Counted from the first letter of the stretch, positions 12,990 through 61,292 are shown. The stretch is 64,000 nucleotides of DNA from Leucoraja erinacea (GCF_028641065.1 NC_073407.1:19592001-19656000), one strand, 5' to 3'. The notes: generated by a model not told the origin, from the sequence alone. Made by a program: numbers and translations.

Positions 12990-13200
12990 TGTAGGAAGGA
13001 ACTGCAGATGCTGGTTTACACCGAAGATCGATACAAAATGCTGGAGTAACTCTGCGGGACAGGCAGCATCTCTGGATAGAAGGAATGGGCGACGTTATGG
13101 GTCAAGACCCTTCTTCAGACTGAGACCCGAAACATCACCCTTTCCTTCTATCCAGAGATGCTGCGTGTCTCGCTGAGTTGATCCAGCATTTTGTGTCTAT
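12990..13200. mobile_element. Fold-back Penelope-terminus element (TGTAGGAAGGAACTGCAG subfamily)
   Basis: Inverted arms around GACCCTTCTTCAGACTGAGACCCGAAAC. Imperfect ATCTTAA(A)AGAG on both flanks. Confidence 0.8.
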
Positions 13201-14280
13201 CTTAAGAGATGGGCTTCGGAAGGAAATGGCAGACCTTGGGAACTGGCCTGCTGACAGCACTGATCCCAATGGAATGGAGACGGATGCGTGGGTGCAACGA
13301 TAAAAGGAGGTAATGAATGTGGACTGATGGAGATCAGAGCAAGTGAGAGGGCTTCAGGCGTTCAATGAGGATTCTAGACCCCTTCATCATTTGTAGTTCA
13401 AGAAACTATCAGAGTCAAAATTCCTAGACCTTCTGTGGTGTAATTACAAACCTTGTCGAACCTCTGACATTATAGTTAGATCAGAACTGTTTTTAATTAA
13501 ACCTGTAAAGCGAAATACTCCACCAGATGAATCTGATGCTGGTTACATTGGAATGTTCTCATTTCCAAATGTAAATGATTACAACAGTGAAGGGTATGGG
13601 AGAGGTAGAATGCCTCGGGCCAGGAAGTACTATGATTAGAGTTAGGTCTAATTAAAAAGGGCACGTTGTCCTTTGCATGGAGCCTAGACAGGGAGATATT
13701 TTTCATGGCAGTACAGAATATCCAATCATAATCTCCTCTGGACTGGGAACATCTCTAGAGACATGGAGTGGGTCTGAACTGGTGAGATCAGCCCTCGTCA
13801 AATCCCCTGGTCCAAAGAATGGTAAAGGGAGAGAGGCACAGGAGAGGGAGAGGGAGAAACGGCCAGACACAAAACACAGATTAGCACAGAACATTTTGTA
13901 TTGCTGCAACTTCAGCTTCTACCACAGTGATAAAACTGCGAACTTTGATGAAGAAAAATCTCTTCAAAGGACAACAAGTTGCGTTTGATTCAGCAGATAC
14001 CTATAATCAGAGAAAATCTTTGGGAAAATTCTCTCTTTTCAGCAAACCACAGGAAGTTTAGCATGTTTACAATGCTTTTCACAATCGTAGAATATCTTAA
14101 CTACCTCAGCCTAGATTTTCACCATTATAGCAAAACAAACGTTAGTTTGTGCACTCCAGGATACCGCATACAGCATGTGGACTGAACAGATATTTTGTGT
14201 TAGTATTACTGGGGGAAGGTTACTATTGGCCAGCACGACTCTTCAGAATAGTAGTATGGGATCTTTTCAATTTATCCAAG

Positions 14281-14703
14281 AATAAGTTAGGTCTTTATTC
14301 TCTGGAGCGCAGAAGGTTAAGGGGGGACTTGATAGAGATCTTTAAAATGATGAGAGGGATAGACAGAGTTGATGTGGACAAGCTTTTCCCTTTGAGAATA
14401 GGGAAGATTCAAACAAGAGGACATGACTTCAGAATTAAGGGACAGAAGTTTAGGGGTAACATGAGGGGGAACTTCTTTACTCGGAGAGTGGTAGCGGTGT
14501 GGAATGAGCTTCCAGTGGAAGTGGTGGGGGCAGGTTCGTTGGTATCATTTAAAAATAAATTGGATAGGCATATGGATGAGAAGGGAATGGGGGGTTATGG
14601 TATGAGTGCAGGCAGGTGGGACTAAGGGAAAAAATGTTGTTCGGCACGGACTTGTAGGGCCGAGATGGCCTGTTTCCGTGCTGTAATATGGTTATATGGT
14701 TAT
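14281..14703 (+). mobile_element. CR1-clade LINE 3' end (second subfamily)
   Basis: KLGLYSLERRRLRGDLIEIFK...TRGHDF...FFTRRVVAVWNELP and an (ATATGGTT)n tail. A short minus-strand copy lies at about 17745-17887. Confidence 0.9.
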
Positions 14704-17700: not shown

Positions 17701-18057
17701 GTCAGTAATACTGGCTCTACTCCTAATAGACTCAAGATGTTAATAACCATATAACCATATAACATATAACAATTTACAGCACGGAAACAGGCCATCTCGA
17801 CCCTTCTAGTCCGTGCCGAACACATATTCTCCCCTAGTCCCATATACCTGCGCTCAGACCATAACCTTCCATTCCGTTCCCGTCCATGTTGTTAGGTAGG
17901 GTAGCACATCTTTACCGAGCAAGGCTGCACAGGCGTGCTTGTTTCCAAGAGACAAAACACCGACCGGGGAATCAAAGGTGTAAATAGAAAGAAGAAGAAT
18001 TGAAAAGAAAGTCTTGCATTTTTACAGTCACTTCTCAAATTTAGACTATCCCGAAGT

Positions 18058-21880: not shown

Positions 21881-22051
21881 CCTGCAATTGCAACAGCGAG
21901 TGGTTCGTTTTGAATTCATTCAATATTTGGAAGTTTAAATGAACGAGATTGCAATTATAAATAATCACCCAGAGGTTGTAAGGTTGGGAAACTGGGAAGA
22001 ATTTGGAGTGACATGGGCCAAATGCAGGCGTTGGGACTAGCCCAAATGCCA

Positions 22052-22516
22052 ACACAAAAAGCTGGAGTAACTCGGCGGGACAGGCAGCATCTCTACAGAG
22101 AAGGGATGGGTGACGTGCCGCGGGTGCCTGCTAGCGCACACAGATATCGAACCCGGCGTTCACAAGCCGCGGTCACGTGACTCAGGAGGGGCTGCTTGTT
22201 TTGCGCGGTTTTTCACTTGCGCGCGTTAGTTCAGCGCTGACCACCGTTGTGGGCAGACGTGTCTGGAGAACCCGTATACTGGATATCGAACTTTTGAATA
22301 AAGATCTGTTGAAAACTCCAGTAGTAGTCGTTTCTCAGACCACTAAAGACGTTTCGGGTCGAGATCCATTCAGACCATTCCAATGCCTCTAGTCTCTCTC
22401 TCTCTCTCTCCCCTGGCTTTCAGTCTGAAGCAGGAACCCGTCCCGTCTCCAGCATTTTGTGCCTAATCTTCGGGGCAAACCAGCATCCGCATGCAGACTG
22501 CAGTTCCTTCCTACAC
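22052..22516. mobile_element. Fold-back Penelope-terminus element interrupted by a solo LTR
   Basis: CACAAAAAGCTGGAGTAACTC...GGGTGACG [LTR] GACGTTTCGGGTCGAG...CAGTCTGAAG...CTGCAGTTCCTTCCTACAC. Confidence 0.75.
22116..22347 (+). mobile_element. Solo LTR (Gypsy-like)
   Basis: Starts TG, ends ACCACTAAA (degenerate ...TACA), has an internal AATAAA and a 4-bp TSD GACG (22112-22115, 22348-22351). CpG-rich. Confidence 0.75.
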
Positions 22517-22690
22517 AAGTTGGGCTGTCGCGGGGGAGAAGGCAGGAAAATGCGGGCGAGAGCAGACGCGATGGGTCGAATGGCCTAATTCTGCCCCCGG
22601 TGTGTCTTGTGTGGTCTTTAGTGGTCGAGTTTGGGGTTGCAGGTGCACAACCAAGGCGAGGAAGAGCTGATGCTGTACATGGAGGGTGTT

Positions 22691-22850
22691 TAAGAAGGAA
22701 CTGCAGGTGCTGGTAAATCGAAGGTGGACAAAGGTGCTGGAGAAACTCAGCGGGAGGAAATAGGCAACGTTTCGGGCCGAAACGTTACCTATTTCCTTCA
22801 CTCCTTAAATGCTGCTGCACCCGCTGAGTTTCTCCAGCACCTTTGTCTAC
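22691..22850. mobile_element. Fold-back Penelope-terminus element
   Basis: AAGAAGGAACTGCAG...AACGTTTCGGGCCGAAACGTT...CTGAGTTTCTCCAGCAC, with inverted arms. Confidence 0.8.
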
Positions 22851-23024
22851 CCTGTACATGGTATAGGACAGGTTTGGAGGGATATGGAGCAAGCGCAGGC
22901 AAGTTTGACCAGTAGTAGCTGGGACATGTTTGGCCTAAGTGGGCAAGTGGACAAATGTGGCCCGAAGTGGCCTCTTTCCACACTGGATCACACTATGCTG
23001 GAGGAACTCAGTGGGTCGGGCAGG

Positions 23025-24310: not shown

Positions 24311-24779
24311 GCAGAACCCTGAGCGCAGTTTGCGGGAGGAAACTGTAAATATCTGCACCTTCTCAGGACATCCCAAAATGTTGCATCCCATTTGAATTAA
24401 GTTAAGACTGAGCGATGCAATCAGTCCAAATCAAAGCAGCGATGTTGGAAATGAGACCATTCCGGATTTAAGTTACTTTAAGCCCTGCACCAAATGTAGC
24501 AGTTTTAAAAATGTTGCAAAGTATAGAATGCGGATATTGCAAAGTATAGAATGCAGTGCAAACCAAAGATCTTTGGTGCAAACCGCAGACGCAAATCAAC
24601 TGCAGATGCGAAAATCTTGAGATAAACACAAAGTTCTGCCCGAAACATCGCCGATCAAAGTCCTCCAGAGATTCTGCCTGAGCCGTCTAGTTACTGTTCC
24701 ACGCAGTACAAAACGCAGCTGATTTCGTGCCCAACACGAGCGGCAATGTGAAAATGCTCAGACCACCTTTTAAAGTGAT

Positions 24780-24916
24780 TAAGGGGGAACTGCAGATGCT
24801 GGAAAATCGAAGGTAGACAGAAGTGCTGGAGAAACTCAGCGGGTGCAGCAGCATCTATGGAGCGAAGGAATCCAGAAGCTGCACCTGCTGAGCTTCTCCA
24901 GCACTTTTGTCTACCT
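24780..24916. mobile_element. Penelope-terminus element with short inverted arm
   Basis: Same GAACTGCAGATGCTGGAAAATCGAAGG family, followed by a partial reverse-complement arm. Confidence 0.75.
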
Positions 24917-25232
24917 TTTAAAGTGAGGTTGTTTGATAGGTGAATATCGAGAAAGGGATAGCATCCCGGACGTTCCGAAGAAACCAAATAGAAATATGAA
25001 TGAGAAAACCAAACGAAGGCTGGTAAAATAATCGTTCTAATCCAATACTTTACGCCCCACAAACCTAAAGAATGTAGGGACATGGCCAATGTCCCATCTA
25101 CAATCTGTAACAAAATGCTCTTGAATCATCCTTAGAGTGAAAAAAAGTGGCTCCACAAGGCACACTGGGGTTGCCAACGACATAAGATGGGTGGTATTGC
25201 AAAATAAAAATGTAGTTTGAAAATATTCTTCA

Positions 25233-29380: not shown

Positions 29381-29835
29381 GGCGGCCCAGTGGTGTAGGG
29401 ATGGAGCTGCTGCCTTACAGTACCAGGGACCCGAGTTCGATCCTGACTTGTCTGCACGGAGTTTGTACATTCTCCCCGTGACCTGCCTGACCCCCCTATC
29501 AGTCTGAAGAAGGGTTTTCGGCCCGAAATGTTACCTATTTCCTTTGCTCCATAAATGCTGCTGCACCCGCTGAGTTTCTCCAGCATTTTTGTGTACCTTC
29601 GATTTTCCAGCATCTGCAGTTCCTTTTTAAACACTGGGTTTTCTCTGAGATCTTCGGTTTCCTCCCTCACTCCAAAGTCTTACAGGTTTGTAGGTTAATT
29701 GGTTTAAGAGTATAAATGTGAAATTTCCCCCAGTGTGTGTAAGGATAGTGTAAACGTGTGCGGGGATCGCTGGTCGGTGTGGACTCAGTGGGCCGAAGGG
29801 CCTGTTTCCGCGCTGTATCTCTAAACTAAACTAAA
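29381..29835 (+). mobile_element. HE1-like V-SINE interrupted by a Penelope terminus (about 29487-29632)
   Basis: B box GAGTTCGATCC, V-domain split by the insertion, (CTAAA)n tail. Confidence 0.85.
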
Positions 29836-29999: not shown

Positions 30000-30525
30000 T
30001 CCCTTGTGAGCCCATGTTTGCCCCACCCCCACAGTACCACCCCCACCCATCTGCCGCTCTCAGAACCTGGATCTGTTATCCCTGTTACCCCTGTCGGGCT
30101 TTTAACCCCCCTCCCACCGGACTGCCCCTTTCTCCCCTCCCACCTTTCCGCTCAGCCATTTTATCCCCAACATCCCTGTATTCCAAATGGACTCATGGCC
30201 ATCTCTCCCCTGTCCCTCCCCTCCCGCCTGCATTCCTTCCTCTGGCTTCACAATTCACAACTCTTCTATCCTTATCTCAAACATTTTATCTTTTCTTCTC
30301 TGCGCTTTTTCCAACCATATGCCTATCAAAACCCCACCTCAAGTGTATTCATGTATCACCCGCCAGACTTTCTCTTGCTCCATCTTCTCTTCCAACTTTC
30401 TTCTCCACCCCCCCCCCCTCCCACCCCTCCAACTACAATCAGTTTATACAAGGACCCTGAGCTGAAGCATCACCAACCCATGGTCTCCAGAGATGCTTCC
30501 TGATATGCTGAGTTGCTCCAGCACC
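30000..30525 (+). mobile_element. Old Penelope 3' UTR/terminus remnant
   Basis: C/T-rich tract resembling the reverse complement of 60200-60500, ending CTCCAGAGATGCTTCCTGA...GAGTTGCTCCAGCAC. Confidence 0.6.
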
Positions 30526-31300: not shown

Positions 31301-34300
31301 TGTATGAAGTAATTGGCATCAGATTGTGAAGTAGAGCTGCAATGGTAAACAACTAGTAAAAAATAAACCCATGTATGTGGAGATGGCGTACGGATATTGG
31401 AAGAAATGATGCTGCTCTGTCAAAAACATACAGTGATAATCATGGGGATTTTTAATCTACTTGTAAATATGATGGACAAAGCTAGCCTGGCTGAAGAGTT
31501 CAGAGTATTTTGGGAGGTAGACAAAAGTGCTGGGGAAACTCAGCGGGTGAGGCAGCATCTATGGAGCGAAGGAAATAGGTGACGTTTCGGGGCGAGAACC
31601 TTCTTCAGACTTATTTTGGGGATGTTTTCTTAAAGCAGGATGTACTACCGCCAACCAGAGCAAGCTTCACTGTGGCACCGTGCCACAAGACGGAACTGGT
31701 TCATTATCTCAAAGTGAAGGCTGCTGGGTGGCAGTCATAACATAAGTTGAGCTGTTCGTTCAACTTGGGGGAGAGAAGGGTGGGTCTAGGACTCAAGAAA
31801 TTGTTAGAGCTGTGGCTGAAAAGTCAAGTCAAGTCAAGTCTATTCGTCACATACACATACGAGATGTGCAGTGAAATGAAAAGTGGCAATGCTTGCGGAT
31901 TGTGCAAGAAAATGCGCACAGTTTCCGCGGAGCTGCCACGACGGCGACTAGACAGGGCCGCGCCATCTTGGGGTTTTGATGGACTTCATCCTTTAGCCCT
32001 GAAAAGAACTAGCTAATGACACAGTAGACGGCTTTGTAATAATTTCCAGAAATTCACATAACTCAAGAAAGGTTCCATTAGTTTGGAAAATAATAAATAC
32101 AACTCCTTTATTCAAAAAAGGGGAGCCAGAGGGCAGAAACATCCAGACAGGGATTATTCAAACAGGGATCACTATTTAACTTTTTTTTAAATCCAGTTAT
32201 CTTTGCATCCGTCACAGGGAAATGATAGAAGCATTTTTTAACAATATATTCGAGTTCTTTGAATAAATAACACGTGCAGTGAATAAAGAGGAACAGGTGG
32301 GCATATTAAGCTTTCCAGAAAGATTTGATAAGGTGCTATGTCAAGGTCATGGCAGAATAGCTCATGATGGAAGAGGTAACATTCTGGTGTGGACAGAGTA
32401 TTGGATGGCGGACAGGAAATGGTTAGGAAGCATAAATGGGCCTTCAATATATGGAACTGGTTATGTGCTAACGAACTGTTGGACAGGCTGGATTTGTATC
32501 CACTGGTGTTTAGAAGAGTGAGAAGGGTCTGAGGATTCTAGATGGGAAGAAAGTGTTTCTTCTTGTAGGAGATTCTTCAATCAGGGATCACTATTTAACA
32601 TATTTAAAAATTCTTATTTCTGAATCAGAATATTGAGCATGTAGATCTTTGTTTTCACTTCACTATCAAGTGTAAAAAGATGCTGTTTTCTAAATGAGCC
32701 TTAAGATTGTGTCCCTGTCTGCCCTCAACTGGAGATGAAAATGATCCCCTTATGTTATTTTAATGTGCAGAATGCACTTCTCCCAAAGTTTTGGCCAATA
32801 ATTGCACATCAGCCACCATCGCATCTTGTCAATATCTCTTTCAGGTTCATTACATTTCCAGTTTTCCTAGCCTTTCATGCATGTGCAGATGGCACAATTC
32901 CTAGTTTTAAACCAATGACCATATGGCTAAAGATTTGGGATGGCCTGTAGCTGTAAACGTTGCTTCGCCTGTGAAAATCTTCCCTTCTCTCTCTCTCCCT
33001 TCCAAGCAGTGCTGGGAAGGCTTGAGTGTCTCACAGAGGGAGCCCTGTGTAACCTTGTACAGAGCTTCTCTCCAAAATCTAATCTAATCTCTCTTTGACT
33101 TTGCCTCATCCTTGTTCTGTAAGGCGCACCATTTGTTGAACAGACTGGTTCAGGGAAGTGCATATTACTTCTTTTTATATTGAGGAATGTATTAAAGCTC
33201 CTTTTTGATCCCCTGAGCACTGAACGTGTTTCACAGCCTTTCGATTGACGACAAAAGCCTCCTAAAACTATTATTTTTCTCTCTTCCTATTTCGCCATTC
33301 AACGTTGAGCAGTGCTGGATGTTTTGCAATTTCCCTCACACCGAAAATCAAATGAATTCCAGACAATACTCACAGCACACACACATCTCCAGTGACAGCT
33401 TCATTCTTGTCTTCAATCACTTTTCTTATTTAATGACATTTTGCAAAGTTAGTGAGTGTTCCACTGTGCCTGGTTCCCCCAGCTTTTCCAATCAGCGTCG
33501 ACAGTCTCTGATTTGCGCCCCTTCTTCCCTGTCCTCCTGGTCACTCTGCTCATGTCCAAACCCCTTGATATAAGTTAAAATGGAAACTAAACCATTGGGG
33601 CTTAATTTCAGTGCGACTGAATTGAAAAGGAATAGAGAGGTAGGTTAAACATATCAACAACTACAGTGAGACCACACTTGAACTATCTTGGAGTTTTCTT
33701 CACTATATTACGGGGGAAACACAACAGTAGTTTTATATAAGGGTGACACCTGATCCACGAGGTTAGAGCTATCTTAAAAGATTGAACGCACTTGGGATTT
33801 TTTCCCCCCAGAGAAGACTGACGGATGATCGGATAAAGATCTTCATGACTAGGAATCGGTGTGCTGGTGAAGGCACATGGATGGCTTCCCTTGTTGGAGC
33901 TACTTAAAGTAGGGCTCATGAATATAAAGTAATAAATAATTAATCCAGAAGGAAATCCAAGCAAAGCTTCTTTACCCAGCCAGCGATGTGGCCATGGAAC
34001 TTGAAGCCTCATAGAGGGTATAAAGCGTATAACGGAGATTTATTTCAAGGGAAGACAGATATACAGGTGATGTGGTCCACCGTAATGAATGTGGATGCTT
34101 TCTGGCCTGCAGGGTAAGTGTTTGAAAGATTCTTTCACTCATGCCAGCCGCCTGTTCTCGTGGAGTTGCCCGAGGCTAATTTAAGAGTTGGCATTAGTCC
34201 TGCGTTCTTTTTTAACATCTGTTTCTTTTACATTTGCAACCAATTCAACCAATTAGAAGAAAAGAAAAAAAAGCTTTTTTTTTTCATTGCTTTCATCAGC

Positions 34301-34807: not shown

Positions 34808-34976
34808 GAAACTCAGCGGGTGCGGCAGCATCTATGGAGCGAAGGAAATAGGCAACGTTTCGTCCCGAAACGTTGCCTATTTCCTTCGCTCCATAGATGC
34901 TGCCGCACCCGCTGAGTTTCCCCCAGCATATTGTGTCTACCTTCGATTTTCCAGCATCTGCAGTTCCTTCTTGAAC
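34808..34976. mobile_element. Fold-back Penelope-terminus element
   Basis: GAAACTCAGCGGGTGCGGCAGCATCTATGGAGCGAAGGAAATAGGCAACGTTTCG pairs with its reverse complement around TCC. Confidence 0.8.
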
Positions 34977-35482
34977 GAATACGCACACACGCTCCCACAG
35001 TGTTGACCAAATAATCTGTGTTGTGTAATGTTGATGATGCACTTCCAATTGTGCAATAAAACACTGCATAGTCAGACCTATTTTTGTGCTCATGTCACTG
35101 GAGGGGGGTCCAAGCACACAACCCCCTGATTTAAACTGATACTCTCAGTGCAGCACACAAAGTGCTTCATACCCTGACTTTTGGTTGAGACACAGAAAGC
35201 TGATGCTGCGTTTACTAAGAGGATCTTACAAATATAAATGGCACAGAAGGTTCCTTGGTGTTGAAAATATCAGTTATAAATGAAAAATATCAAGACTGAG
35301 ATCAATGGCATTTTGATGGGCGAGAGTAATGTGGGGAACCCAATCAAGTGGGTAAAGTACAGATGCACCATGATCTAAGTGAGTAGAATATACAATGAAG
35401 GGACTGGATAATCACCTTACGTGTCTGCTTGGAAAAGCATTGTCCCCGTTCTTTAACCCTCACCCCACTCCCCAGACCTTAA

Positions 35483-39739: not shown

Positions 39740-40885
39740 CATCCAGGTCCAGCAACATAATCAAGGACAGGTTGCACGATGGCCATACCCTCTTCTCCCC
39801 TCTCCCATCAGGCACAAGGTATAGAGGAGTTAAAACCTCCAGATTCAGGGACAGTTTCGTCCAAGTTCTTATTAGGCAACTGTCTCATTCTTCACCAACC
39901 TAAGAGTAATGTTGAACTACTATCTACCTCTTTGGTGACTCTCGGACTATCCTTGATCAGCTTTGCTGGCTTTATAGACCACCAGGTGGCGCCACCGAAG
40001 GCTGCCTCACCAACGGTCAGTCTCGTCTTTTTTACTTTGTTGTTTTTAGTTTGTTGTAAAGTGTATGTTATAGTGTACTTCTGGTTTTGTATTGTGTGGG
40101 GGGTGGTGGGGGAAACTTTTTTTTAAATCTCTTTCCTCGATGGAGATGCAACATTTTTCCATGTTGTATCTCCGTCCGCACTGCGGCCTAACTGGCGGCC
40201 TCATGCTGGGGACCGACTTTGGGATCTCCAACCGCGGGAGCCTGTGGACTTAATATCGTGGAGTTTGCGATCCCTTCGTCAGGGATCGATTTCGGCAGCT
40301 CCAAGCCGCAGGAGCTTCGACGGCCCCGATCACGGGGAGCTTCGATCGGCCCGACTGCGGATGGTTCGACTCCCCCGACCGCAGGAGAAAAAGGAGGAAA
40401 GAAGATAAGACTTTATCGCCTTCCATCACAGTGAGGAATGTGGAGCAGCCGCTGTGGTGGATGTTTATGTCAAATGTTATGTCGTTGTGTAGTTGTGTGT
40501 CTTGTTGCTTTTTTGGTATGAATGTGTGGCAAATCAAATTCCTCGTATGTTACAAAACATATTTGGCTAATAAATTATGATTATGATTATGATTACCTTG
40601 CACTAAATGTTATTCCCTTCTCATGTATCTATTGTAATTATGTATTGTCTTTCAGCTGACTGGATAGCATGCAACAAAGGTAGACAAAATTGCTGGAGAA
40701 AATCAGCGGGTGCTGCAACATCTATGGAGCAAAGGAAAAGGCAACGTTTCGGGCAAAAACCCTTCTCCAGCATCTGCAGTTCCTTCTTGAGCATGCAACA
40801 AAACCGTTTTACTGTATCTCGGTACACGTGACAATAAACTAAACTGAACTGAAACTGAAACTGAAACTGAACTGAACTGAAACTG
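39740..40885 (+). mobile_element. Rex1/Babar-type LINE 3' end hosting two nested insertions
   Basis: HTLFSPLPSG-type coding end, ACACGTGACAATAAAC and a (CTGAA)n tail. Split by elements at 39975-40595 and 40678-40790. Confidence 0.7.
39975..40595 (+). mobile_element. Non-coding retroelement with CTCF-like head, 3' stem-loop and (ATTATG)n tail
   Basis: Splits the host LINE UTR at GGCTTTA|CCTTGCAC. Same architecture as 10489-11375. Internal GGGAGCTTCGA subrepeats. Confidence 0.7.
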
Positions 40886-47374: not shown

Positions 47375-47880
47375 ATAAACGATAGGAGCAGAATTAGGCC
47401 ATTCGGCCCATTAAGTCTACTCCGCCAGTCAATCATGGCTGATCTATCTCTCCTTCCTCAACCCATTTTCCTGCCTTCTCCCCATAACTCCTGACACCCG
47501 GAATAATCAAGAATCCATCTATCTCTGCCTTCAAAATATCCATTGACTTGGATAGACACAAAAAGCTGGAGTAACTCAGCTGGACAGGCAGCATCTCGGG
47601 AGAGAAGGAATGGGTAACGTTTCGGGTCGAGACCCTTCTTCAGCCTCCACAGCCTTCTGTGGCAAAGAATTCCACAGATTCACCACCCTCTGACCAAAGA
47701 AATTCCCCAATAAAACTCCGTCTTAAAGGAATGTCCTTTAATTCTGAGGCTAGTCCTAGATTCTCCCAAAAATGGAAACATCCTCTCCACATCCACTCTA
47801 AGCCATTTACTATTCGGGAAGTTTCAATGAGGTGTCCCCTCATCCTTCTAAACTCCAGGGAGTTGAGGCCCAGTGCCGTC
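47375..47880 (-). mobile_element. CR1 LINE 3' end split by a Penelope terminus
   Basis: ALGLNSLEFRRMRGHLIET. The insertion at 47551-47643 splits GACTTGG|CCTCCACAGCC. Confidence 0.85.
47616..47643 (-). ncRNA. Minimal hammerhead-ribozyme-like core within a Penelope terminus
   Basis: The minus strand reads CTGAAGA-A-GGGT(CTCG)ACCC-GAAACGTT: CUGANGA box, stem II, GAAA, palindromic ACGT stem III and NUH triplet. Stem I is weak and activity is untested. Confidence 0.55.
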
Positions 47881-48597
47881 AAGATGATCTAGACACGCAT
47901 TTACATCTCATCATAGGGACAAGAGAATGTAAATGCAATTGATTAAATTAAAATGACTGAGAACACTAGGGTCAGTAGTGCAGCCCATGAAACTACTGGG
48001 CTGTTATTTTAAAATCCACCATGTTCACCAATTTCTTCCGCTATCCTTACCCAATCTGCCCTAGGTGGTATCACAAACATGCAGCAATGTGGTTGGCTCT
48101 GGAATGGCTGAGCAATCCATACAATTCAAGAAAATAAAAAATCTGCAGATGCTGGAAATCTGAAATAAATACAGAAAATCAGTGGGTCAGTCAGCATCTG
48201 ATGAAGGGTCTTGGTGGTGAAACTTTAACTGTTTTTCCTTCCTCAGAAACAGCAGGCTGAATGATTCCAGCTTTTCATGATTTCATTCAATTCGAGGCCA
48301 GACAGTTAAGCAATAATTGCTGCTTTTGGCCGTCTCCCCCACATCCCTTGAAATAATTAAATGGAATATGCAATTGGATAATTCCCTGCTTAAATCATGT
48401 TTTAATCATCAGATTATGTAGATGCAAATGCTCCTAAATAGTTTTTCCTTCATTTAAAAAAATATATATATGTGGATTCAATATCCAATGGTTAATGGTG
48501 AGATAATATTACGTGTCTGATGGCAGGAAGCATAGAAGCAAGATGGTAGGAGGAAGAAGTTTATGAGGTAGTACATTCAGGGCACTCCAGAGACAGC

Positions 48598-49743: not shown

Positions 49744-50284
49744 GATTGCAGTCAGTCTAAATCTCTGACGCCCATATACAAAGCCAAGGATTGTGCTTTT
49801 AAAAGAATGTATTTGCATTTAGATACTGTTTTTTACAGCCACCGATAACAAATTGCACTTTAACATGAGAGTGGTTTGGAAGTACTTTGGAAGTAATGTA
49901 GAAGAGCAGGCAACCAATATGAACACAGCAAGATCCCACAATTATTGATATGCAGCATGTATTTTGTTTAGTAATATTGACTGAGTAATGAATATTGACC
50001 AACACCCTCATGAGAACTTCCCTTCTCTTCAAAATAATCTTTTATGTTAACGTTAATGACATTTGGGTCCTCGGTTTAATATCCCATCTGCAAAACTGTA
50101 TCTCTGTTAATGCAGAGAATACTGCAGTCCCATCTCAAATCCACAACTCCCAGACTCAGAGGCAAGGATATTATCACTGATCCAGAGATCGCTCTCCCTC
50201 ACTTGAGGAATTCCATCCATGGCAGTGCTCATTTCTTTAAGAAATCAGTAGACGACACAAAGCATCCCAGGCAGCTTTCGTCTT

Positions 50285-50411
50285 TAAGAAGGAACTGCAG
50301 ATGCTGGAAAATCGAAGGTACACAAAAATGCTGGAGAAACTCAGCGGGTGCAGCAGCATCTATGGAGCGAAGGAAATAGGCAACGTTTCGAGCCGAAACC
50401 CTTCTTCAGAC
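50285..50411 (-). mobile_element. Single Penelope terminus with hammerhead core (50382-50409)
   Basis: The minus strand reads GTCTGAAGAAGGGTTTCGGCTCGAAACGTTGCC...CAGTTCCTTCTTAAA. Further copies lie at about 29487-29632, 31517-31610, 40678-40790, 47551-47643, 52817-52942 and 53727-53836. Confidence 0.8.
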
Positions 50412-50972
50412 TTTAGTTCTTAGTTTAGAGATATGTCTTATGGTCTTATGATTTAAATGACAAATGTCTTCAGCGTTGGTTTGGGATTGAATGACAGTTT
50501 ATAAATATGATCTCTATCTATGGTTCAACTGCTTATTACATAGATTCATTCAGACTGGAGTGATTCACTAATAAAAAATAGTCAGGATCATCTATATTTA
50601 CACAGACATTTCTGCTTCTCTAAGGAAGTCCTTCAGGGTCAAGGATGACTAGTTTCTAGTTTAGTTCCACACTTTCTGTGAAGTCAATGTGGGATCAGCA
50701 GACTCTGTCTGGGTGGGACACAGATTGGGGGTGTATGTGTGGGATGTACTGCACTCCTGCTCCTTCCACTGTGCTTCCATCCCAGATGCTCTGTCTCCAT
50801 TTTGAATGCTTACAGGTCAGATTGTCACATGTTGGTCACAATGTTACAATTTGTTAAGGGGGCCTTTGTGAGCATCCTTGAAGAATTTCCTCTGGTCCTC
50901 TTGGTAACCTCGTGCTATAGCTCAAAGTAGTGCTTGTTTTAGGTATTTAGTGTCAAGCATCCAAACAATATG

Positions 50973-51188
50973 TTCAAGAAGGAACTGCAGATGCTGGAAA
51001 ATCGAAGGTACACAAAAATGCTGGAGAAACTCAGCGGGTGCAGCAGCATTTATGGAGCGAAGGAAATAGGCAACGTTTCGGGCCGAAACCCTTAGGGTTA
51101 CGGCCCGAAACGTTGCCTATTTCCTTCGCTCCATAGATGCTGCTGCACCCGCTGAGTTTCTCCAGCATTTCTCCAGCATTTTGTGTAC
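50973..51188. mobile_element. Fold-back (inverted) Penelope-terminus insertion with 15-bp TSD
   Basis: AAGAAGGAACTGCAGATGCTGG...GTTTCGGGCCGAAACCC is followed by its reverse complement. It is flanked by CATCCAAACAATATG at 50958-50972 and 51189-51203. Confidence 0.85.
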
Positions 51189-54100
51189 CATCCAAACAAT
51201 ATGGTCTGCCTCTTGGATCTAAGTGAGTTCAACCACAGCCTTGCATGCCTTCACGTAGCAGATGAGAATGGAGACCAAATTTTGATAGCAGCAAATTTGA
51301 GAAGGATTCTCGTCAGTCACGGAATTATGTAACATCGTGTATAACCATGTTTCGTGGTTATATTGCTCCGCCCATTTTTCTTGGAGTTGGCACATGGTGA
51401 AGATCATATTCCATGTACCTCTTCATGGATGGAGCCCACGGTGCAATTTGGGAGCACCTCTGGCCAGTACGCTTAACACTGGCTTACCACAAACATAAAC
51501 AAACTCTCACCTTTCCTTCAGCCCCTGTCCTTCACCATTCTACCAAAAACATCAACACCTCCGACGTTTCCCTATCTCTGTCCTCTTTCCCCTCTCAATT
51601 CTATTCCTCTTCACTTAAGTCCTTCCTAGTTGGCCATCCCCTCATCCTTCTCCTCTTGATTCATTCACAACCACTCCAGGCTCCCTGGCCTGCTGCATCC
51701 CATTCCCCATGTGCTACCTGCTTGCTGTGGCTTTCCAATACACATGCACACCGTCACACACACGGCAATATTAATTTTCATGCACATGTACGTACACACC
51801 CAAGCACAATTATATGCACACATTCACAGACACATGGTCTCTTTAAGTGAGGTTCTCAATTTAATGGCATTTGAGGGATGATTTTGTACTGGAATCCTAA
51901 ACTGAGATAAAAGCTTCCACTGGGATTGCAGAGACAGGCTACTTACATCTCACCATTCTGCACTGGATTTAAACCCACGTCTCAGAGGGACAAAGACACT
52001 TCACTTATCCTGAAGCACTCCCCACTTGAAAAGATCTGGAAATGTCAAATTTCATTAATCATCAGTGTAACATTCACTTTATGGTCTGTCACATGCATAA
52101 AGAGAAGGAGATGTGTGGGGATTATTTTTCTTATTATTAATATGAATAGAATATTCAGGCAAAAGAAAGCTCCTCAGGAAAGATATATTGATCTTGGGGG
52201 TGTACAGTGCAGCTTTAGCAGAATTAAAGAATAACATCTTGAGGACAAGTTTTAGGAACAGGCTGAATTGATTGAAGACAATCACATTGAAGAGTTAAAA
52301 GTGATAAAGAATTAAATAAAGTATTTTCAGTTAATCTATTTGCTCTAGGATGATCCGGAACAAAGAAGCATAATTTAAAATGAGATTGGCTCAGCAAATA
52401 GCATTCCTTTACATAAAAGTGAATGAAAATCTAAGATTGTCTTCACCAAATGTTTGTGCATTTTGGAAACTAATCAAAATTGTCTAGAATGAAATTCGAT
52501 AAACTGTGGTGAATTAAGTCATATCAAGGGATGAAAGTTGAGGTTACATCAACCAAGCAGCCAGATGAAGGGAGAGCAGATTTCGGGAGCTGTTCTGATC
52601 CTTGATAATGGTATTTCGCCAAGAAGATGAAATAAAAATGGAAAACAAGATGGGAAAAGCAAATAAAAGAGAGGCTCAAGGTACAATTGATACATGAGTG
52701 TTTCACCATGGACCAGAATCTGCCATAAGACGACAGTTTGTTCAATGATAGTCCAATTGAACAGTCCCAGCTTTGTATTAATTAAAGGCACCATATATTT
52801 GGAAAAGGGGTTTTAAAGAAGGGTTTCAACCCGAAACGTTGCCTATTTCCTTTGCTCCATAGATGCTGTCTCACCCACAGAGTTTCTCCAGCATTTTTGT
52901 CTTCCTTTGATTTTCCAGCATCTGCAGTTCCTTCTTAAACATGTTTGGAAAAGCCTCTTGCTTTTTTATCAGCCACCAGCCCTGCAATTGCAGTAGTTTC
53001 AGGAGTTTGTTATTTAAATCAAAAGCAATATGTTAGTACATTAGAAATCGTGCAATACTTGCAATGTGCAGCAGACTATCCTGTGAGGCAACCTGGGCAG
53101 GCTAGGCTTGTATCTGCTGGAGATTAGAAGAATGCAAGGTGACAATAAAAAACATAAAATTGTACGGGGTCTTTGCACAATGGATGTGAAGAAGGCAACG
53201 CAGTGGCACAGAAAGGAGAGCTGTTGCCTTACAAGTCCAGCAAGCCAGTTTCATCTCTGGTTCTGTGTGTTTGCATGTCCTCCCTGCGACCATGTGGATT
53301 TGCTCCAGCATCCCAAAGCTTTGCAGGTTGGTAGGTTAATTGACCAATGTAAATTGTCCCTGGTGTGTAAAAGAGTGGTAGAATTGGGGGAGGGGGACAG
53401 TGAGGGAGAGAGATGACAGGAACCTTGGTAGAGTAAAAAGGGTTAGGGTAGGTTAGTGTCAAAATTGGTGTTTGATAGTCAGCTCAGACTGTGGGAAAAG
53501 GGGCTTTTCCCTCTCTGTATCTCTGTGACTTTAGATTTTTTGCTCTTGGTGGGAAAATTCTAGAATTAAGGGTCATGATTTTAAAAATGGCTCACTCGTA
53601 TATGACATAGAAAAGGAGTATTCATTTCCTCTGAGGGTCATAGATCTTTGGAACTCCCATCCTCAAAGGACAGCAGAAGCACAATATTTGAATGTTTTAT
53701 GCCAGAGAGGGATGGATGGTTGATTGTTTAAGAAGGAACTGCAGATGCTGGAAAATCGAAGGTACACAAAAATACTGGAGAAACTCAGCGGGTGCAGCAG
53801 CATCTATGGAGTGAAGGAAATAGGCAATGTTTCGGCACTTAATAATAATAATAATAATAATAACTTTATTTCTTAAGCACCTTAAAAAACAACCAAAGCT
53901 GACCAAAGTGCTGTACAGAAAAAAAAATAAGCAAGACATCATAAAACAGGCAGAACAACAGAACATACAGCTAACACGATGCGCATAAATTACATACGAA
54001 AATTCAACAATAAATTAAAAGACATAAAACATGAGTATGAACCACGCAGCAAAATCAAGCAAATAAAGTAAATAAATAAGTCGACACCTTACTGGTCTAC

Positions 54101-56524: not shown

Positions 56525-56885
56525 TTTTCAAGAGAGAGTTAGATTTAGCTCTGAGGGCTAAAGGAATCAAGGGATATGGGGAAAAGGCAGGAACTGTATG
56601 GAGGGGCTGTATGGCCTTCTCCTCCTCCTGTTCCTACTTCTTACATTCTTATCCTACATTAATGAATTCTGCCTTGTTGTTAATTGCAGAGTTTCATGAC
56701 GGAAGTTGAGGGATTCTGTCAGGCATCATTTTCGATGATCAGCCATGATCATATTGAATTGCGGTACCGGCTCGATGGGTTGAACGGCCTATTCCTGCAC
56801 CTATTTTAGACAATAGACAATAGACAATAGGTGCAGGAGTAGGCCATTTGGCCCTTCGAGCCAGCACATAATATTTTCTATGTTT
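56525..56885 (+). mobile_element. CR1 3' tail interrupted by a 126-bp templated insertion and an inverted second tail
   Basis: GAGAGTTAGATTTAGCTCT...GCAGGAAC [56601-56726] GATGATCAGCCATGATCATATTGAA... Confidence 0.75.
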
Positions 56886-57359
56886 CAAAACACCGCTCCT
56901 TCCCAAATCAGTGAATCCATTACATATTATGTCAAACCACCCACTCCACAAAAAAAAATAAACTGCATTTCTATACCACCAACACAGTGTAAAATATCAA
57001 AAGATGGTTTACAGGAACAATAACAGAAACTCTGAGAGTTAAGGGTTTGAGGACAGAAAAGCAATATGGTTTCGACACAGAATGCCAAGGTTTCATGAAA
57101 TGTCCAAGTTCTAACTGCAATATTAAACCAAGGCTGCAACATTAAAAGCAAACGCAGTCCTGCGGGAGAAAATGGGAAATGGGAGTTGAGGTAAATGATG
57201 AGCCATAACATTGCTAAATGTAGAAATAGCCTCGAGGGGCTGTATGGCCTTCTCCTACTCCTGTTCCTACTTCTTACATTCTTATCCTACATTAATGAAT
57301 TCTGCCTTGTTGTTAATTGCAGAGTTTCATGATGGAAGTTGAGGGATTCTGTCAGGCAT
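56601..57359 (+). repeat. 126-bp direct duplication (56601-56726 and 57234-57359)
   Basis: GAGGGGCTGTATGGCC...TTCTGTCAGGCAT occurs twice, with two mismatches seen. Confidence 0.92.
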
Positions 57360-58167
57360 TAATAACATAAACCATTACACTAACTTTAAAACAGTAAGGT
57401 GGTGATAAAAAATTAACTACCCTGAAGGACTGTCCTGGGAAATTACTGCTTGTGTGAATATCCTGTACTGCATAATGGTGGCTAGATTACATAAGAGGAA
57501 TACGACAGAAATTTAGCAAAGGGAATAAGAATTAGGATGAATTAAATTGATTATTGGATTAAGCAGCTTCAAACCCCATCTGTGCACCTGCCATTTAATT
57601 TGGCTGTAATTGAGAATTAAGAATTAGACTTGTGACCAATTCATCTGCAAAGCCTTTGAATAATATGTTTGGGTAATGCAGAAAATGGTGGAGTACGTTC
57701 TGCTATCTTAATGCATTAAATGACGATTTATTTGTTGACTGCTTTTTTTTCTCTTTTAATTGCAATTGATCGGGAAATGTTAAAGAAAGAGAAAGGTTTA
57801 TATTTCCATGGCATCTTTCATGAAAATATAGTAAGAGGAACAGAGGCAGCTGACCATCCAACCCGTTGAGCCTGCTTTGCCTTTCATTAACACATATGTA
57901 CATATTACTATCTCCAGATCTCTTTAATTCCTTTATCAGTCTGCGTTTTGAATGAACGCCACTGTCCTCTGTGATAAAGGATACCAAAGATTCATTGTTA
58001 CCTGAGTGAAAATGATTCTCCTCACCTCAGTCTTTAATGACCTAGCCCTTATTTTCAAACTACATACTACATCTGTTGGTCATGTGAAATATCTTCCCTG
58101 CAGTTAGCCTGTCAAAACATTAACAATTTTGAAAGCCTTGATGAGATCTCTTCTCAATTCTTTAGAA

Positions 58168-59050
58168 AACTAGGTGCAGGAGGAGGCCATTTGGCCCTTC
58201 AAGCCAGCACCGCCATTCATTATGATCATGGCTGATCATCCATAATCAGAAACCTGTGCCTGCCTTCTCCCCATATCCCTTGATTCTGCTAGCCCAGAGC
58301 TCTATCTACCTCTCTTTTAAATTCATCCAGTGAATTGGCCTCTACTGCCTTTTGTGGCAGAGAATTCCACAAATTCACAACTCTCTGGGTGGAAAGGTTT
58401 TTTCTCATCTCAGTTTTAAATGGTCTCCCCTTCATTCTTATATTGTGGCCCCTGGTTCTGGACTCCCCCAACATTTGGGAACATTTTTCCTGCATCTAGC
58501 TTGTTCAGTCCTTTTATAATTTTATATGTATCTATAAGATGCCCTCTCATCCTTCTAAATTCCAGTGAATACAAGACCAGTTTTTTCCAATCTTTCCTCA
58601 TGTGACAGTCCCGCCATCCCGGGGATTAACCTCGTGAACCTACGCTGCACTGCCTCAATAGCAAGGATGTCCTTCCTCAAACTAGGAGACCAAAACTGCA
58701 GACAATACTTTGGATGTGATCTCACCAGAGCCCTGCAGAAGGATCTCTTTCCTCCTATACTCAAATCTTCTCGTTATGAAGGCCAACATGCCTTAGCTTT
58801 CTTCACTGCCTGCTGTACCTGCATGTTTACTTTCAGTGACTGGTGTATAAGGGCACCCAGGTCTCATTGCACTTCCCTTTTTCCTAATCTGACACCATTG
58901 ATATACTAATCTGCCTCCTTGTTCTTGCCGCCAAAGTGGATAACCTCACATTTATCTACATTATACTGCATCTGCCATGCATCTGCCCACTCACTCAACC
59001 TGTCCAAGTCACCCTGCAACCTCCTAGCATCCTCTTCGCAGTTCACACTG
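58168..59050 (-). mobile_element. CR1 LINE 3' portion
   Basis: ALVRSHPKYCLQFWSP...AIEAVQRRFTRLIPGM...EFRRMRGHLI...WNSLP. Confidence 0.9.
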
Positions 59051-60100
59051 TTCACTTGTTTCACACTATTCATTGTTCACACTGTTTGCAGTTCACTTAA
59101 AACTCTGAAGAAAACAATTGCTGTCAACTCAATCCAGCACCTTTGGAACCATTCTGGTGAATCTATATTTAATTATCTCTATTGCAAGTATATTCTCAAG
59201 TATATCCTGCCTTGAGTATAGAGACTCTAAATTGTGCACAATACTCCAGCTGTGTTCTCACCAAGGCCCTGTACAATCCTAGTAAGATTCCTTTATTCAT
59301 ACATTGAAATCCTCTTGCAAGAAAACTAACATAACATTTATCCCCTTAATTATTTGCTTCATCTGCGTGTTATCCTTTAGTGAGTTCTATACCAGTACAC
59401 ACAGGTTCCTTATCCTCAACATTACCTACTCTCTCAACATTTAATAATTTGATCTTCAGTTCTATGCACAACCTCACATTTTTTCCCACATTATATTCCC
59501 TTTGCAATGTTCTCATTCAGCTCGACACTGGAGCCTCTATAAAATCTCCACTGTATTCACAATCACATCTGGTTTAATATTGTCAGCAAATTTGCAAATA
59601 TGACATTTGGTCTCCTTAGCCTTTTTTGTTGATTTATATTTTGAGTAGCTTGGTTCGAAGCACCGATCCCTGTGATACGGAGAGCCAGCTGGGAATGATT
59701 TGTTTATTTCCATTCATTGGTTTCTGTGCAATAATCAATTTCAGTCCATATCAAATTGTTATGCCCAAATTCCATGTGCTCTGATCTTGTTGATCCTGTG
59801 TGGAACCTTATTGAACACCCGCTGAAAAGACAAATACAGCCTATCCACTGATTGCTTCTTATCCTGCCGACTAATCACATCCTCAAAGAACTCCAGTAGA
59901 TTAAACATGACTTTCCCTTCATAAATCCGTGTTGACTCTGCTCATACCTGTCATTCTTCTCATGCTGTTTTGTTTTTATATCCTTTATTATAGATGCCAA
60001 CATTTCCCCTATCATTTACACAACAACAGGGCTCCTCATATTACTTTATGGGGGATTAATTACTTTAAAAATGTATTATAAAAAAATACAATAGCTAATT

Positions 60101-61292
60101 TGTGTAGAAACAAGGATGGGAAGAGGGTTTACAAAAACGGGTTGACACTAATTTATGGAGTATCTCAGCGGATAGGTGATGTTTCAGGTCAGCACCCTTC
60201 TTCAGACTGACTGTGGGGGTGGATTTGGGGAGAAAGCTGGAAGAGAGGAGGGGCAGGACAAAGTCTGGCGAGTAATATGTAGATACAGGTGAGGTATTTT
60301 TTTTAATAGGCAGATGGTTAGACAAAGGCCAGGGGTGAAGAGACAGAAGGTGTGAAACAAAAAGATTGAAGAGTTGGAAATTGTGAGGCTCGAGGAAGGA
60401 ATGCAGGTAGAATGGGAGAGAAAGGGGGGAAATATGTGTGTGTTAAGGTGGGGCACAAGGGAGAGAGGATGGAGGGGAAGAAAGGGGCAGGGTGGAAGAA
60501 GGGCAGGAGGGTTTTGTACTTCCTAATATTGGAGAATTTAATGTTCGTATGGTTGGGTCGTAAACCACCAATCTGGAATATAAGGCGCTGCTCCTCCAGT
60601 TTGTGTGGACTCACTCTAGCCATGGAGGAGGCCCAGGACATAAAGGACACTATGGAAATGGGAAGCAGTTGCCAACCAGTAGACCAGCAGGTCTTAGCAG
60701 ACCGAGCACAAGTGTTCAGCAAGACAATCACTGAATCCTCGATTGGTCGGGCCGATGTACAGCAGGGCTCTTCGGGAACACCGAATCCAGTAGATAAGGA
60801 AAGAGGAGGTGCATGTGAACATCTGACTCACCTGAAAGGAGTGCTGGGGTCTCTGGATGAAGGTGAGGGAGGAGGTATAGGGACAGATATCACATCTCCT
60901 GGCTCTGCCATTCCAGGGGGAAGTACCCGGGGATGGGATGGGTGGGAAGGGATTAGTGAACCAAGGAGTTGTGGAGGATGTGAAGATGTCACTGGTGTTG
61001 AAGGAAATATTGAAGAATGATGTGTTAATGATATGTAGAAGCTGGTGGGTGAAAGACGAGGACCATCTCAGGTGTCCCAGAATGGAAAGACTCATTTTGG
61101 GAGCAGGTGTGGTTGAGACAGAGAAATTGAGAGTAGGAATGTGTCTTTGCAAGAGGCAGGGTGGAGTTAATCCAGTTAACTGTGGGAGTTGGTGGGTTTG
61201 TAGTAGATGTCAGTCGATAATCTGTCACCTGCGATGGAGACAGTGAGATCAAGAAAGGGGAGAGAGGTGTCAGAGATAGTCCAAGTGAAATC
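60101..61292 (-). mobile_element. Penelope-like retroelement, 5'-truncated and degenerate (RT C-terminus, GIY-YIG endonuclease, 3' UTR/pLTR with hammerhead core)
   Basis: Frames give DFTWTISDTSLPFLDLTVSIAGDRLSTDIYYKPTNSHS (PLE RT C-terminus), FTCTSSFLIYWIRCSRRALLYIGPTNRGFSDCLAEHLCSV (GIY-YIG) and KLEEQRLIFQIGGLRPN. A pyrimidine-rich UTR follows, then CTGAAGA-AGGGTGCTGACCT-GAAACATC at about 60178-60205. Frameshifts and stops are present. Confidence 0.92.

What the first reader, a model, noticed from the sequence alone, without database searches (positions are those of the whole stretch)
12990..60210. Dispersed short Penelope termini carrying a minimal hammerhead-ribozyme core
Seen: more than a dozen ~90-220 bp insertions match the 3' terminus of the Penelope remnant at 60101-61292. 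Several keep CTGAAGA-A-stem II-GAAAC(G)T(T/C): 29504-29532 (+), 47616-47643 (-), 50382-50409 (-), about 31581-31608 (-) and about 60178-60205 (-). Established: Penelope-like elements carry minimal type I hammerheads with palindromic stem III, thought to cleave as dimers. Seen: two subfamilies differ in stem II (GGGT-CTCG-ACCC vs GGGT-TTCG-GCCC), both still pairing, but stem I is only about 2 bp. Many copies start at or near the core. Inference: a ribozyme-delimited, retrozyme-like non-autonomous family mobilised by the PLE RT.
Basis: partly seen in the sequence, partly recalled or inferred. Interest (0 to 1): 0.7.

Follow-up and report, generated by a model that had tools for sequence, protein, structure and literature searches.

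The report
Penelope run-off stubs with minimal hammerhead
These short repeats are end pieces of an abundant Penelope-type jumping gene that carries a known miniature self-cutting RNA motif; most stop at the motif's front edge instead of its predicted cut site, likely because the copied RNA begins there, so they are likely by-products of copying and not a separate ribozyme-driven element.

Summary
The window has about 29 arms of a Penelope-like (PLE, Neptune-type) terminus, and 3 of the 5 named cores pass a minimal-hammerhead descriptor. The genome holds young copies with open RT/GIY-YIG frames and roughly 0.75 million arms (extrapolated). With +1 as the C of CUGAnGA, 3' ends sit at about +95 and +132, like the two internal RT start sites shown for Anolis Poseidon. 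5' ends pile up at -10..+8 (122 of 181 copies at risk); only 2 of 242 start at the predicted cut (+29). Inverted pairs join one +95 arm to one +132 arm (158 of 176 records). Best reading: RT starts near the RNA's front and runs off its 5' end, likely an initiator (TCAGT), leaving stubs unless it jumps to the 3' repeat. The cap-G test was inconclusive and RNA reads showed no start. No retrozyme family was found: one tandem array and a small +29 bump only. The hammerhead, tail and inverted copies are published; my searches did not find the 5'-end pile-up in print. This scan noted the same pattern before, here and in other genomes.

The parts
60101..61292 (-). Old, decayed 5'-truncated Neptune-type PLE: RT C-terminal part, Cys linker, GIY-YIG endonuclease, pyrimidine-rich 3' UTR, terminus
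   Evidence: tblastn of a young element's protein hits 61292-61052 and 60936-60525 at 53-75%; 11 stops in one frame
60178..60205 (-). Decayed hammerhead core of the remnant (stem III C-G lost)
   Evidence: fails descriptor
29498..29636 (+). Solo stub, family A, about -6 to +133 (long end B); core 29504-29532 passes descriptor
   Evidence: 94% to young element; no TSD found
50279..50412 (-). Solo stub, family A, -3 to +132; core 50382-50409 passes descriptor
   Evidence: 96% to young element
47556..47646 (-). Solo stub, family B, about +1 to +90 (short end A); core 47616-47643 passes descriptor
31516..31614 (-). Solo stub, -3 to +94, stem II broken; 9-bp TSD
12990..13203 (.). Head-to-head pair, family B: B-ended arm (-, from -5) joined to A-ended arm (+, from +16)
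22686..22852 (.). Head-to-head pair, B arm (-) and A arm (+), centre in the stem II palindrome; 10-bp TSD
24773..24917 (.). Head-to-head pair without core: B arm from +35 (-), A arm from about +51 (+); 14-bp TSD
34808..34978 (.). Head-to-head pair centred in the stem II palindrome; B arm (+), other arm (-) ends at +74; 8-bp TSD
40675..40794 (.). A-ended arm (-, from about +3) with a short inverted piece of the tail (B arm); 13-bp TSD
50968..51189 (.). Head-to-head pair centred at +7/+8: B arm (-), A arm (+); 15-bp TSD
52815..52943 (+). Solo stub from about +4 to +132; 10-bp TSD
53724..53836 (-). Solo stub from +18/+19 to +131 (core incomplete)
22052..22116 (-). Solo stub, family B, from +24 to +90
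30201..30524 (+). Older copy that keeps the 3' UTR upstream of a decayed core (long class)
48142..48293 (.). Old head-to-head pair of a divergent family with CTGATGA core

Best explanation
The short inserts are copies of the hammerhead-bearing terminus of an abundant Neptune-type Penelope-like retrotransposon, and they are likely run-off products: the element's RT likely starts at one of two internal sites about 95 or 132 nt past the hammerhead start, copies through the uncut hammerhead, and stops where the RNA likely begins, at an initiator-like TCAGT just in front of the core. Shown: shared sequence with intact ORF-bearing copies, two fixed 3' ends, TSDs, a sharp 5' boundary at about -3, and A+B pairing in inverted copies. 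From established work: internal RT initiation at two sites flanking the 'tail', nicking and extension of both target strands, and no need for HHR cleavage in vitro (PAc, PMC11167929); an internal Inr/DPE promoter in the D. virilis pLTR (PMC2377424). Inferred: the boundary is the transcription start. Both nicked target ends are primed, one at A and one at B, and the cDNAs join each other or the target through short matches (palindromes at -5..+4 and in stem II). Long copies arise when RT jumps from the RNA's front to the repeated 3' pLTR, like an LTR element's first strand transfer, or when the template is a read-through RNA. The hammerhead is predicted to be masked by a competing hairpin and would cut only a minority of templates.
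For: Autonomous partner: 91 scored matches at 96-100% to a 468-aa RT/EN frame, 86 of them without a stop inside. L169 is a partial tandem with a 3,886-bp unit and the likely start ATG at about +167. 3' ends cluster at about +95 and +132. 5' ends of the first 100 anchor matches on C1: 29 reach -54 or beyond, 0 lie at -53..-10, 40 at -9..-1, 23 at +1..+13, 8 at +19..+37. In 242 young arms, 122 of 181 at risk end at -10..+8 against 12% expected from the downstream rate (p about 5e-68). In 264 arms of all ages from unselected DNA, 155 start at -7..+8, 2 at +28..+31, and 41 are long. Genome-wide exact counts fall from 32,858 (+1) to 26,926 (-2), 21,200 (-3), 17,598 (-4) and 10,126 (-10). TCAGT is the majority sequence before the core in the large subfamilies, while the upstream UTRs of long copies differ; it fits the Inr consensus YYANWYY (consensus recalled). 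Inverted pairs are A+B in 25 of 26 and 158 of 176 classifiable records (23 more unclassifiable; a pair can be counted twice). In array L300, 3 of 13 junctions leave from -3..-1 and none from further upstream. RNAfold gives stem II about 0 probability because +6..+11 pairs with +35..+41.
Against: The start site was not observed. Two lays of RNA reads showed no pile of read starts at -3 or +29; these libraries are dominated by passive transcripts of copies and are not cap-selected. Cap-G test inconclusive: G precedes A(-3) in 1,155 of 3,602 (32%) against backgrounds of 27-35%; G precedes G(-2) in 45 of 100 listed against 30-36%; 5 of 8 TSD-resolved junctions with extra bases have G before A(-3). 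More exact matches stop at -2 (5,726) than at -3 (3,602), and ends tail out to +13. The ladder counts include mutational loss and subtype differences. About 16-29% of copies pass the boundary, which read-through templates explain without any jump. There is a small excess of starts at +29 (about 1,180 corrected against 530-710 at +26, +27, +28, +30, +31; +33 is also high at about 1,070), so some templates may be ribozyme-cut. In D. virilis the start lies well upstream of the HHR, with an intron between (PMC2377424, PMC4209133).
Confidence: 0.6

Rival explanations
1. RT stalls or falls off at the front edge of the core on a longer read-through RNA, because of RNA structure, a bound PLE protein, or annealing at the TCAG-T-CTGA palindrome. 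No transcription start lies there.
For: Ends spread from -9 to +13. No cap signature was shown. -5..+4 is an interrupted palindrome that pairs between two RNAs in cofolding, and many inverted joints are centred there or in stem II.
Against: The predicted hairpin spans +6..+41, so a stall should come near its 3' foot, where ends are rare (hazard 0.003-0.007 per nt against 0.079 at -10..-1). Solo copies without an inverted partner show the same pile-up (79 of 169). The upstream UTR is pyrimidine-rich, and no end lies at -53..-10 among 100 copies.
Confidence: 0.2
2. The template's 5' end at -3/-1 is made by processing and not by initiation: a 3' splice site (polypyrimidine tract then CAG|T), a nuclease, or endonuclease cutting of the cDNA at the palindrome.
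For: The sequence looks like a 3' splice site, and in D. virilis an intron ends at the 5' side of helix I (PMC4209133). The excess of ends at -2/-1 fits CAG|T as well as an Inr.
Against: Only 2 genomic copies join the ORF end directly to the core. No such splice joint is among the joints shown in RNA reads (67 joints were not shown). TSD-resolved stubs abut host DNA without a shared upstream exon.
Confidence: 0.1
3. One reading: a ribozyme-delimited, retrozyme-like non-autonomous family whose units are cut out by the hammerhead and mobilised in trans.
For: The core is conserved among the large subfamilies, and differences keep pairing (U-A to U-G at 12/17 and -1/29, GUC to GUU). There is a small bump of starts at +29. 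Among 19 such loci several are clean solo starts, one is a tandem with two units starting at +29 (L320), and one has a +203 to +29 junction (L334). One 14-unit tandem array exists (L300).
Against: The large majority of copies span the cut site. They are dispersed monomers or inverted pairs (4 close direct neighbours among 208). All subtypes include long ORF-bearing copies. The L300 junction type occurs at only 2 loci in the genome. 5 of the 19 '+29' loci are internal deletions or mutated full cores, and 6 are inverted joints.
Confidence: 0.04
4. The stubs are a SINE-like family that re-amplifies from short master copies through an internal promoter.
For: Short copies outnumber long ones about 2.5- to 5-fold and contain the putative Inr.
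Against: No subtype is short-only. B-ended stubs need a template that extends past site A. By analogy with PAc, RT needs RNA about 55-60 nt downstream of its start sites (PMC11167929), which stubs lack.
Confidence: 0.06

Closest known systems
[quoted passage not shown]
   Same: CUGAnGA, one extra base before stem II, G-C closing pair, palindromic C-G in place of helix III, NUH; thousands of single motifs 'probably related to truncated PLEs'; Neptune PLEs of fishes are named; opposite-strand pairs 100-700 bp apart are noted.
   Different: Here stem II is 4 bp and stem I 2 bp (S. mansoni motifs have 7-8 and 4-5 bp; a 2-bp helix I is reported for D. virilis). The part read gives no end histogram relative to the motif.
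Anolis Poseidon PAc (Frangieh et al. 2024, PMC11167929; read: parts 1-2 of 4, main text and start of methods; supplements not read)
   Same: Two internal RT start sites downstream of the HHR that define the 30-40 bp tail; both target strands cut and extended; HHR cleavage not needed in vitro and only seen with protein; no RNA-seq ends at the HHR cut.
   Different: This element is Neptune-type, and its ORF likely starts about 167 nt after the core, not inside stem II. The paper's main text does not describe a 5'-end pile-up at the core's front edge or the one-arm-per-site rule; its Fig. S2 (not seen) may bear on this.
Canonical EN+ PLE insertion architecture (Craig et al. 2021, PMC8557442; Arkhipova et al. 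2013, PMC3846280; passages read)
   Same: 5' truncation, partial tandems, inverted 5'-truncated partner, tail at only one end, TSDs of about 8-10 bp, palindromes at inverted junctions.
   Different: Those passages ascribe the tail to endonuclease resolution and the palindromes to self-priming on an antisense template. The A+B pairing and sharp -3 boundary here point instead to two target-primed cDNAs from a sense RNA with a defined front end (inferred).
Metazoan non-LTR retrozymes (Cervera and de la Pena 2020, PMC7229834, passages; Li et al. bioRxiv 10.64898/2026.07.22.740005, parts 1-3 of 5)
   Same: Short, non-coding, type I HHR, related to PLE pLTRs. The single array L300 has two consecutive core-bearing units and resembles the proposed birth of retrozymes from PLE termini.
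   Different: Retrozymes are head-to-tail tandem repeats of 150-450 bp, mostly with canonical HHRs, and give circular RNAs. These copies are dispersed monomers or inverted pairs whose ends ignore the cut site.
LTR-retroelement minus-strand strong-stop DNA and first strand transfer (textbook knowledge, recalled)
   Same: Works like it in the inferred model: priming near the RNA's 5' end, run-off, jump to a repeated 3' end.
   Different: Target-primed, no tRNA primer, no integrase; failed jumps are inserted as stubs. Not a member.

Membership tests
EN+ Penelope-like element (Neptune type) | Single ORF with RT followed by C-terminal GIY-YIG endonuclease | tested here: met
   Open frames up to about 1,050-1,190 aa; Pfam RVT_1 (E 3e-6 and 1e-3) and GIY-YIG (E 2e-3), both below Pfam's curated cut-offs; YIGET and YIDD motifs visible
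EN+ Penelope-like element (Neptune type) | Cys-rich Zn-finger-like linker between RT and EN | tested here: met
   C-x4-C-x2-C (CNRKRCNIC) before the GIY-YIG; feature from PMC8557442. No tree was built, so Neptune versus Nematis rests on this and on recalled RT motifs
EN+ Penelope-like element (Neptune type) | Partial tandem / pLTR, inverted 5'-truncated partner, 30-40 bp tail at one end, TSD | tested here: met
   L169 partial tandem; inverted partners in L170, L173, L177, L183; tail about 38 bp; TSD median 13 bp
Minimal type I hammerhead of PLEs | CUGAnGA, extra base, stem II, GAAA, palindromic 15.2-16.2 pair, NUH | tested here: met
   41 descriptor hits in 1.004 Mb against 0-1 in controls; core invariant in the large subfamily majorities; 3 of 5 named window cores pass
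Minimal type I hammerhead of PLEs | Helix I long enough to hold the cut site | tested here: inconclusive
   2 bp in 25 of 41 hits; subfamily changes keep the -1/+29 pair; only one-sided changes were seen
Minimal type I hammerhead of PLEs | Core more conserved than flanks | tested here: inconclusive
   Core invariant between large subfamilies while +13/+14, +17, +28/+29 and +32..+43 vary, but +44..+57 and +66..+80 are nearly as constant; individual copies decay neutrally, with CpG loss at C25-G26
Minimal type I hammerhead of PLEs | Self-cleavage as a dimer or with protein | not testable with these tools
   MFE folds of monomer and dimer do not form the ribozyme; small +29 bump in genomic starts
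Non-LTR retrozyme | Head-to-tail tandem units, each with an HHR | tested here: not met
   4 direct neighbours under 400 bp among 208 core-bearing arms; one array (L300), junction type at 2 loci genome-wide
Non-LTR retrozyme | Unit boundaries set by the HHR cut | tested here: not met
   2 of 242 arms start at +29 against 36 at -3/-2; 3' ends at +95/+132
Non-LTR retrozyme | Independent non-autonomous lineage | tested here: not met
   All three subtypes scored have long and short copies; small sample (100 copies), no tree
Non-LTR retrozyme | Abundant unit-length linear and circular RNAs | not testable with these tools
   PolyA and single-cell reads laid cannot show small circles; no pile of read ends at +28/+29

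The most novel reading that the evidence does not exclude
Penelope-like elements replicate through an LTR-like first strand transfer. A capped RNA starts at an initiator three bases before the hammerhead. An RT dimer primes both nicked target ends, one at site A and one at site B. Each cDNA runs off the cap after 95-135 nt and must jump to the 3' pLTR to copy the ORF. Failed jumps leave the hundreds of thousands of stubs and A+B hairpins. The hammerhead, filling the first 30 nt of the mRNA, acts as a protein-gated switch that removes the cap or sets the 3' end of the repeated region. Repeated jumps within the 5' region can seed retrozyme-like arrays such as L300.
Probability: 0.3. Interest if true: 0.65.

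Novelty: new member of a known kind. Interest (0 to 1): 0.38.

Why it matters
The hammerhead in PLE termini and the truncated and inverted copies are known, so the motif itself is ordinary. The value lies in the fossil record. Tens of thousands of young copies give base-level positions for both ends of the cDNA. These positions argue against HHR cleavage defining insertions, and they make two open questions directly testable with the existing in vitro PLE system: where PLE RNA starts relative to the ribozyme, and how pLTRs, tails and inverted partners are built. If the strand-transfer model is right, it would explain why active PLEs need a partial tandem and would link target-primed and LTR-type replication.

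Tried and rejected
Rfam scan of the window: no hammerhead family at E<=10; the top hits are miRNA models matching the head-to-head hairpins. 3' splice site / spliced template: 2 candidate intron-less copies genome-wide, no splice joint among those shown; not favoured. Cap-G signature: inconclusive. Sequencing runs: no RNA holder listed; the three raw-read RNA runs laid were added by study or species label and show mostly passive transcripts; one listed start pile (L170:5142, 12 molecules) is unrelated to the boundary. over-called 'long' copies because inverted arms matched each other; it was replaced after masking. One search had a descriptor bug, fixed. (pattern for starts at +28) admitted the consensus base and was dropped; one search replaced it. 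In one search, many of the 23 ends at -99..-11 are long copies of subfamilies missing from my reference panel, so that rate (0.0055 per nt) is an upper bound. The +26..+33 counts were corrected only for base composition and contain internal deletions and palindrome-centred joints (seen for +29; flanks of +27, +28 and +30 matches were not seen). Literature searches for a published strong-stop or strand-transfer model, or a 5'-end pile-up, in PLEs found none; the library lacks most subscription papers, and Lunse et al. 2017 on dimer cleavage was not read (recalled). Supplements were not consulted: Fig. S2 of PMC11167929 and the closed bioRxiv supplements may bear on novelty.
Full report
Numbering: +1 is the C of CUGAnGA. 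The predicted hammerhead cut follows +28 (GUC or GUU), so a cut product would start at +29.

1. Observation. The five cores lie where stated. A profile from natural copies finds 29 arms in the window. Eighteen clear short arms form about 13 insertions, six of them head-to-head pairs, and several have 8-15 bp TSDs. A minimal-HHR descriptor finds 41 motifs in 1.004 Mb of sampled genome (window included) against 0-1 in four Markov controls; in the window it accepts 29504, 47643 and 50409 but not 31608 or 60205. Rfam finds no hammerhead. The stubs are 76-96% identical to a young element and only 61-81% identical to the remnant at 60101-61292.

2. The parent element. The genome (2.19 Gb; that it is a cartilaginous fish is my recall and other notes' wording, not a tool result) holds a young family: 91 scored matches at 96-100% to a 468-aa RT/EN frame, 86 without an internal stop. 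L169 is a partial tandem with a 3,886-bp unit. The order is core, two end sites, likely start ATG at about +167, long ORF, RT, Cys linker, GIY-YIG, pyrimidine-rich UTR, core. Pfam supports RT and GIY-YIG weakly. The linker fits the Neptune type (PMC8557442, passages). An exact 38-mer downstream of the core has 46,046 matches. The profile gives 347 hits in 1.004 Mb, about 0.75 million arms if representative.

3. 3' ends. They fall at about +95 (A) and +132 (B). The 38 bp between them is the known PLE tail. For Anolis Poseidon, the tail is the stretch between two internal RT start sites, both target strands are cut and extended, and HHR mutants insert normally in vitro (PMC11167929). In inverted pairs, one arm ends at A and the other at B: 25 of 26 records, and 158 of 176 classifiable records in all fetched DNA, with 23 unclassifiable. 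'Tail at one end only' is published (PMC3846280, PMC8557442).

4. 5' ends, the decisive test. For the first 100 matches of the downstream anchor on C1: 29 extend to -54 or beyond into the UTR and ORF, none end at -53..-10, 40 end at -9..-1, 23 at +1..+13, 8 at +19..+37, none at +28..+30. For 242 young arms (core-selected copies left out), the per-base rate of ending is 0.003 at +38..+49, 0.007 at +29..+37, 0.005 at +21..+28, 0.013 at +9..+20, 0.037 at +1..+8, 0.079 at -10..-1 and at most 0.0055 further upstream. 122 of 181 end at -10..+8 against 12% expected. In unselected DNA, 155 of 264 arms of all ages start at -7..+8, 2 at +28..+31, and 41 are long. Genome-wide exact counts drop from 32,858 at +1 to 17,598 at -4 and 10,126 at -10; these include mutation and subtype loss. 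Read depth in RNA runs added by study or species label drops at the same place, which reflects transcribed copies, not a start site. The boundary is real and lies about 30 nt upstream of the cut.

5. The cut site. Corrected counts of apparent starts are about 530 (+26), 650 (+27), 590 (+28), 1,180 (+29), 710 (+30), 620 (+31) and 1,070 (+33) (raw 187, 162, 209, 418, 177, 246, 424). Of 19 distinct +29 loci, 5 are deletions or mutated full cores, 6 are inverted joints and 8 are solo or tandem starts, including L320 and L334. A minor ribozyme-cut template class is possible but not shown. Folding predicts that +6..+11 pairs with +35..+41 and masks stem II in both families, in line with the protein-assisted cleavage of PAc.

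6. Non-autonomy. Three subtypes each have long and short copies (12/22, 15/38, 1/6; 6 copies unassigned), as do the GUC and GUU alleles, and only 4 of 208 core-bearing arms have a direct neighbour within 400 bp. One true array was met by chance: L300 has 14 units of the element's 5' region, with junctions from about +204..+223 back to +32/33 (9), -3..-1 (3) and +22 (1), ending at site A. Its junction type occurs at 2 loci genome-wide. It looks like repeated template jumping or local duplication, not a family.

7. What makes the boundary. TCAGT precedes the core in the large subfamilies and fits an initiator (consensus recalled). D. virilis Penelope has an internal Inr/DPE promoter in its pLTR (PMC2377424, passages), though its start lies further from the HHR. 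A splice-site origin got little support. A cap-derived G was not demonstrated: 32% against 27-35% background at -4, 45 of 100 against 30-36% at -3, and 5 of 8 in TSD-resolved junctions. A stall is less likely because ends are rare at the 3' foot of the predicted hairpin and solo copies behave like paired ones. I commit to run-off at the RNA's 5' end (about 0.6 overall; about 0.9 that the stubs are by-products of the autonomous element). RT starts at A or B, copies the uncut hammerhead, runs off, and either inserts as a stub, anneals to the partner cDNA at a palindrome, or jumps to the 3' pLTR. The jump, the start site and the dimer priming are inferred.

8. Comparison and novelty. The motif, the many solo copies, the inverted partners and the tail are published (PMC4209133, PMC3846280, PMC8557442, PMC11167929). 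Retrozyme criteria (PMC7229834; bioRxiv 10.64898/2026.07.22.740005) are not met. My searches did not find the 5'-end pile-up or a strand-transfer model for PLEs in the held library; unseen supplements may bear on this. I wrote the start-site reading in my notebook before opening the scan's notes, which report the same pattern in this and other genomes; they are repeats of the idea, not independent evidence. One of them claims a usual extra G before the start, which I could not confirm here.

9. Verdict. A new member of a known kind with a real and testable mechanistic clue. Interest 0.38.

Noticed in passing
L300:74-2546 (G000:C1, about 24.09 Mb): Head-to-tail array of 14 sequence-identical units of the element's 5' region with five junction types; two consecutive units carry the full core. 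A possible snapshot of serial template jumping or of retrozyme birth.
   Followed up: partly
L320 and L334 (near position 1500 of each): Copies starting exactly at the predicted cut (+29): L320 has two units in tandem that both start there; in L334 ORF-start sequence (to about +203) is joined directly to +29.
   Followed up: partly
L303:1424-1576 and L270:2965-3494: Stubs whose partner or upstream piece comes from the ORF start (+152..+204 inverted; +98..+306 direct), so RT can also enter downstream of site B.
   Followed up: no
L169 (minus strand, +49..+116 of the unit): Predicted stem pairing AGAUGCUG (+49..+56) with CAGCAUCU in the tail, with an inner GCUGAG/CUCCAGC hairpin; conserved across subfamilies and flanked by sites A and B; a candidate RT recognition structure.
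   Followed up: no
window 48142-48293: Old inverted pair of a divergent family with a CTGATGA core; a small CTGATGC cluster (5 copies) also appears in the sample.
   Followed up: no
window 56783-56848: Hairpin with a short (ATAGACA)n centre that matches miRNA models below their cut-offs; it looks like an inverted piece of another repeat.
   Followed up: no
window 62464-63207 (-): 248-aa open frame with an RT-like FADD motif, likely a LINE fragment (family assignment recalled, not tested).
   Followed up: no
L274:1501-1525: One genomic copy joins the ORF end directly to TCTGAAGA, as an intron-less or microhomology-deleted copy would; only 2 such matches exist genome-wide.
   Followed up: partly
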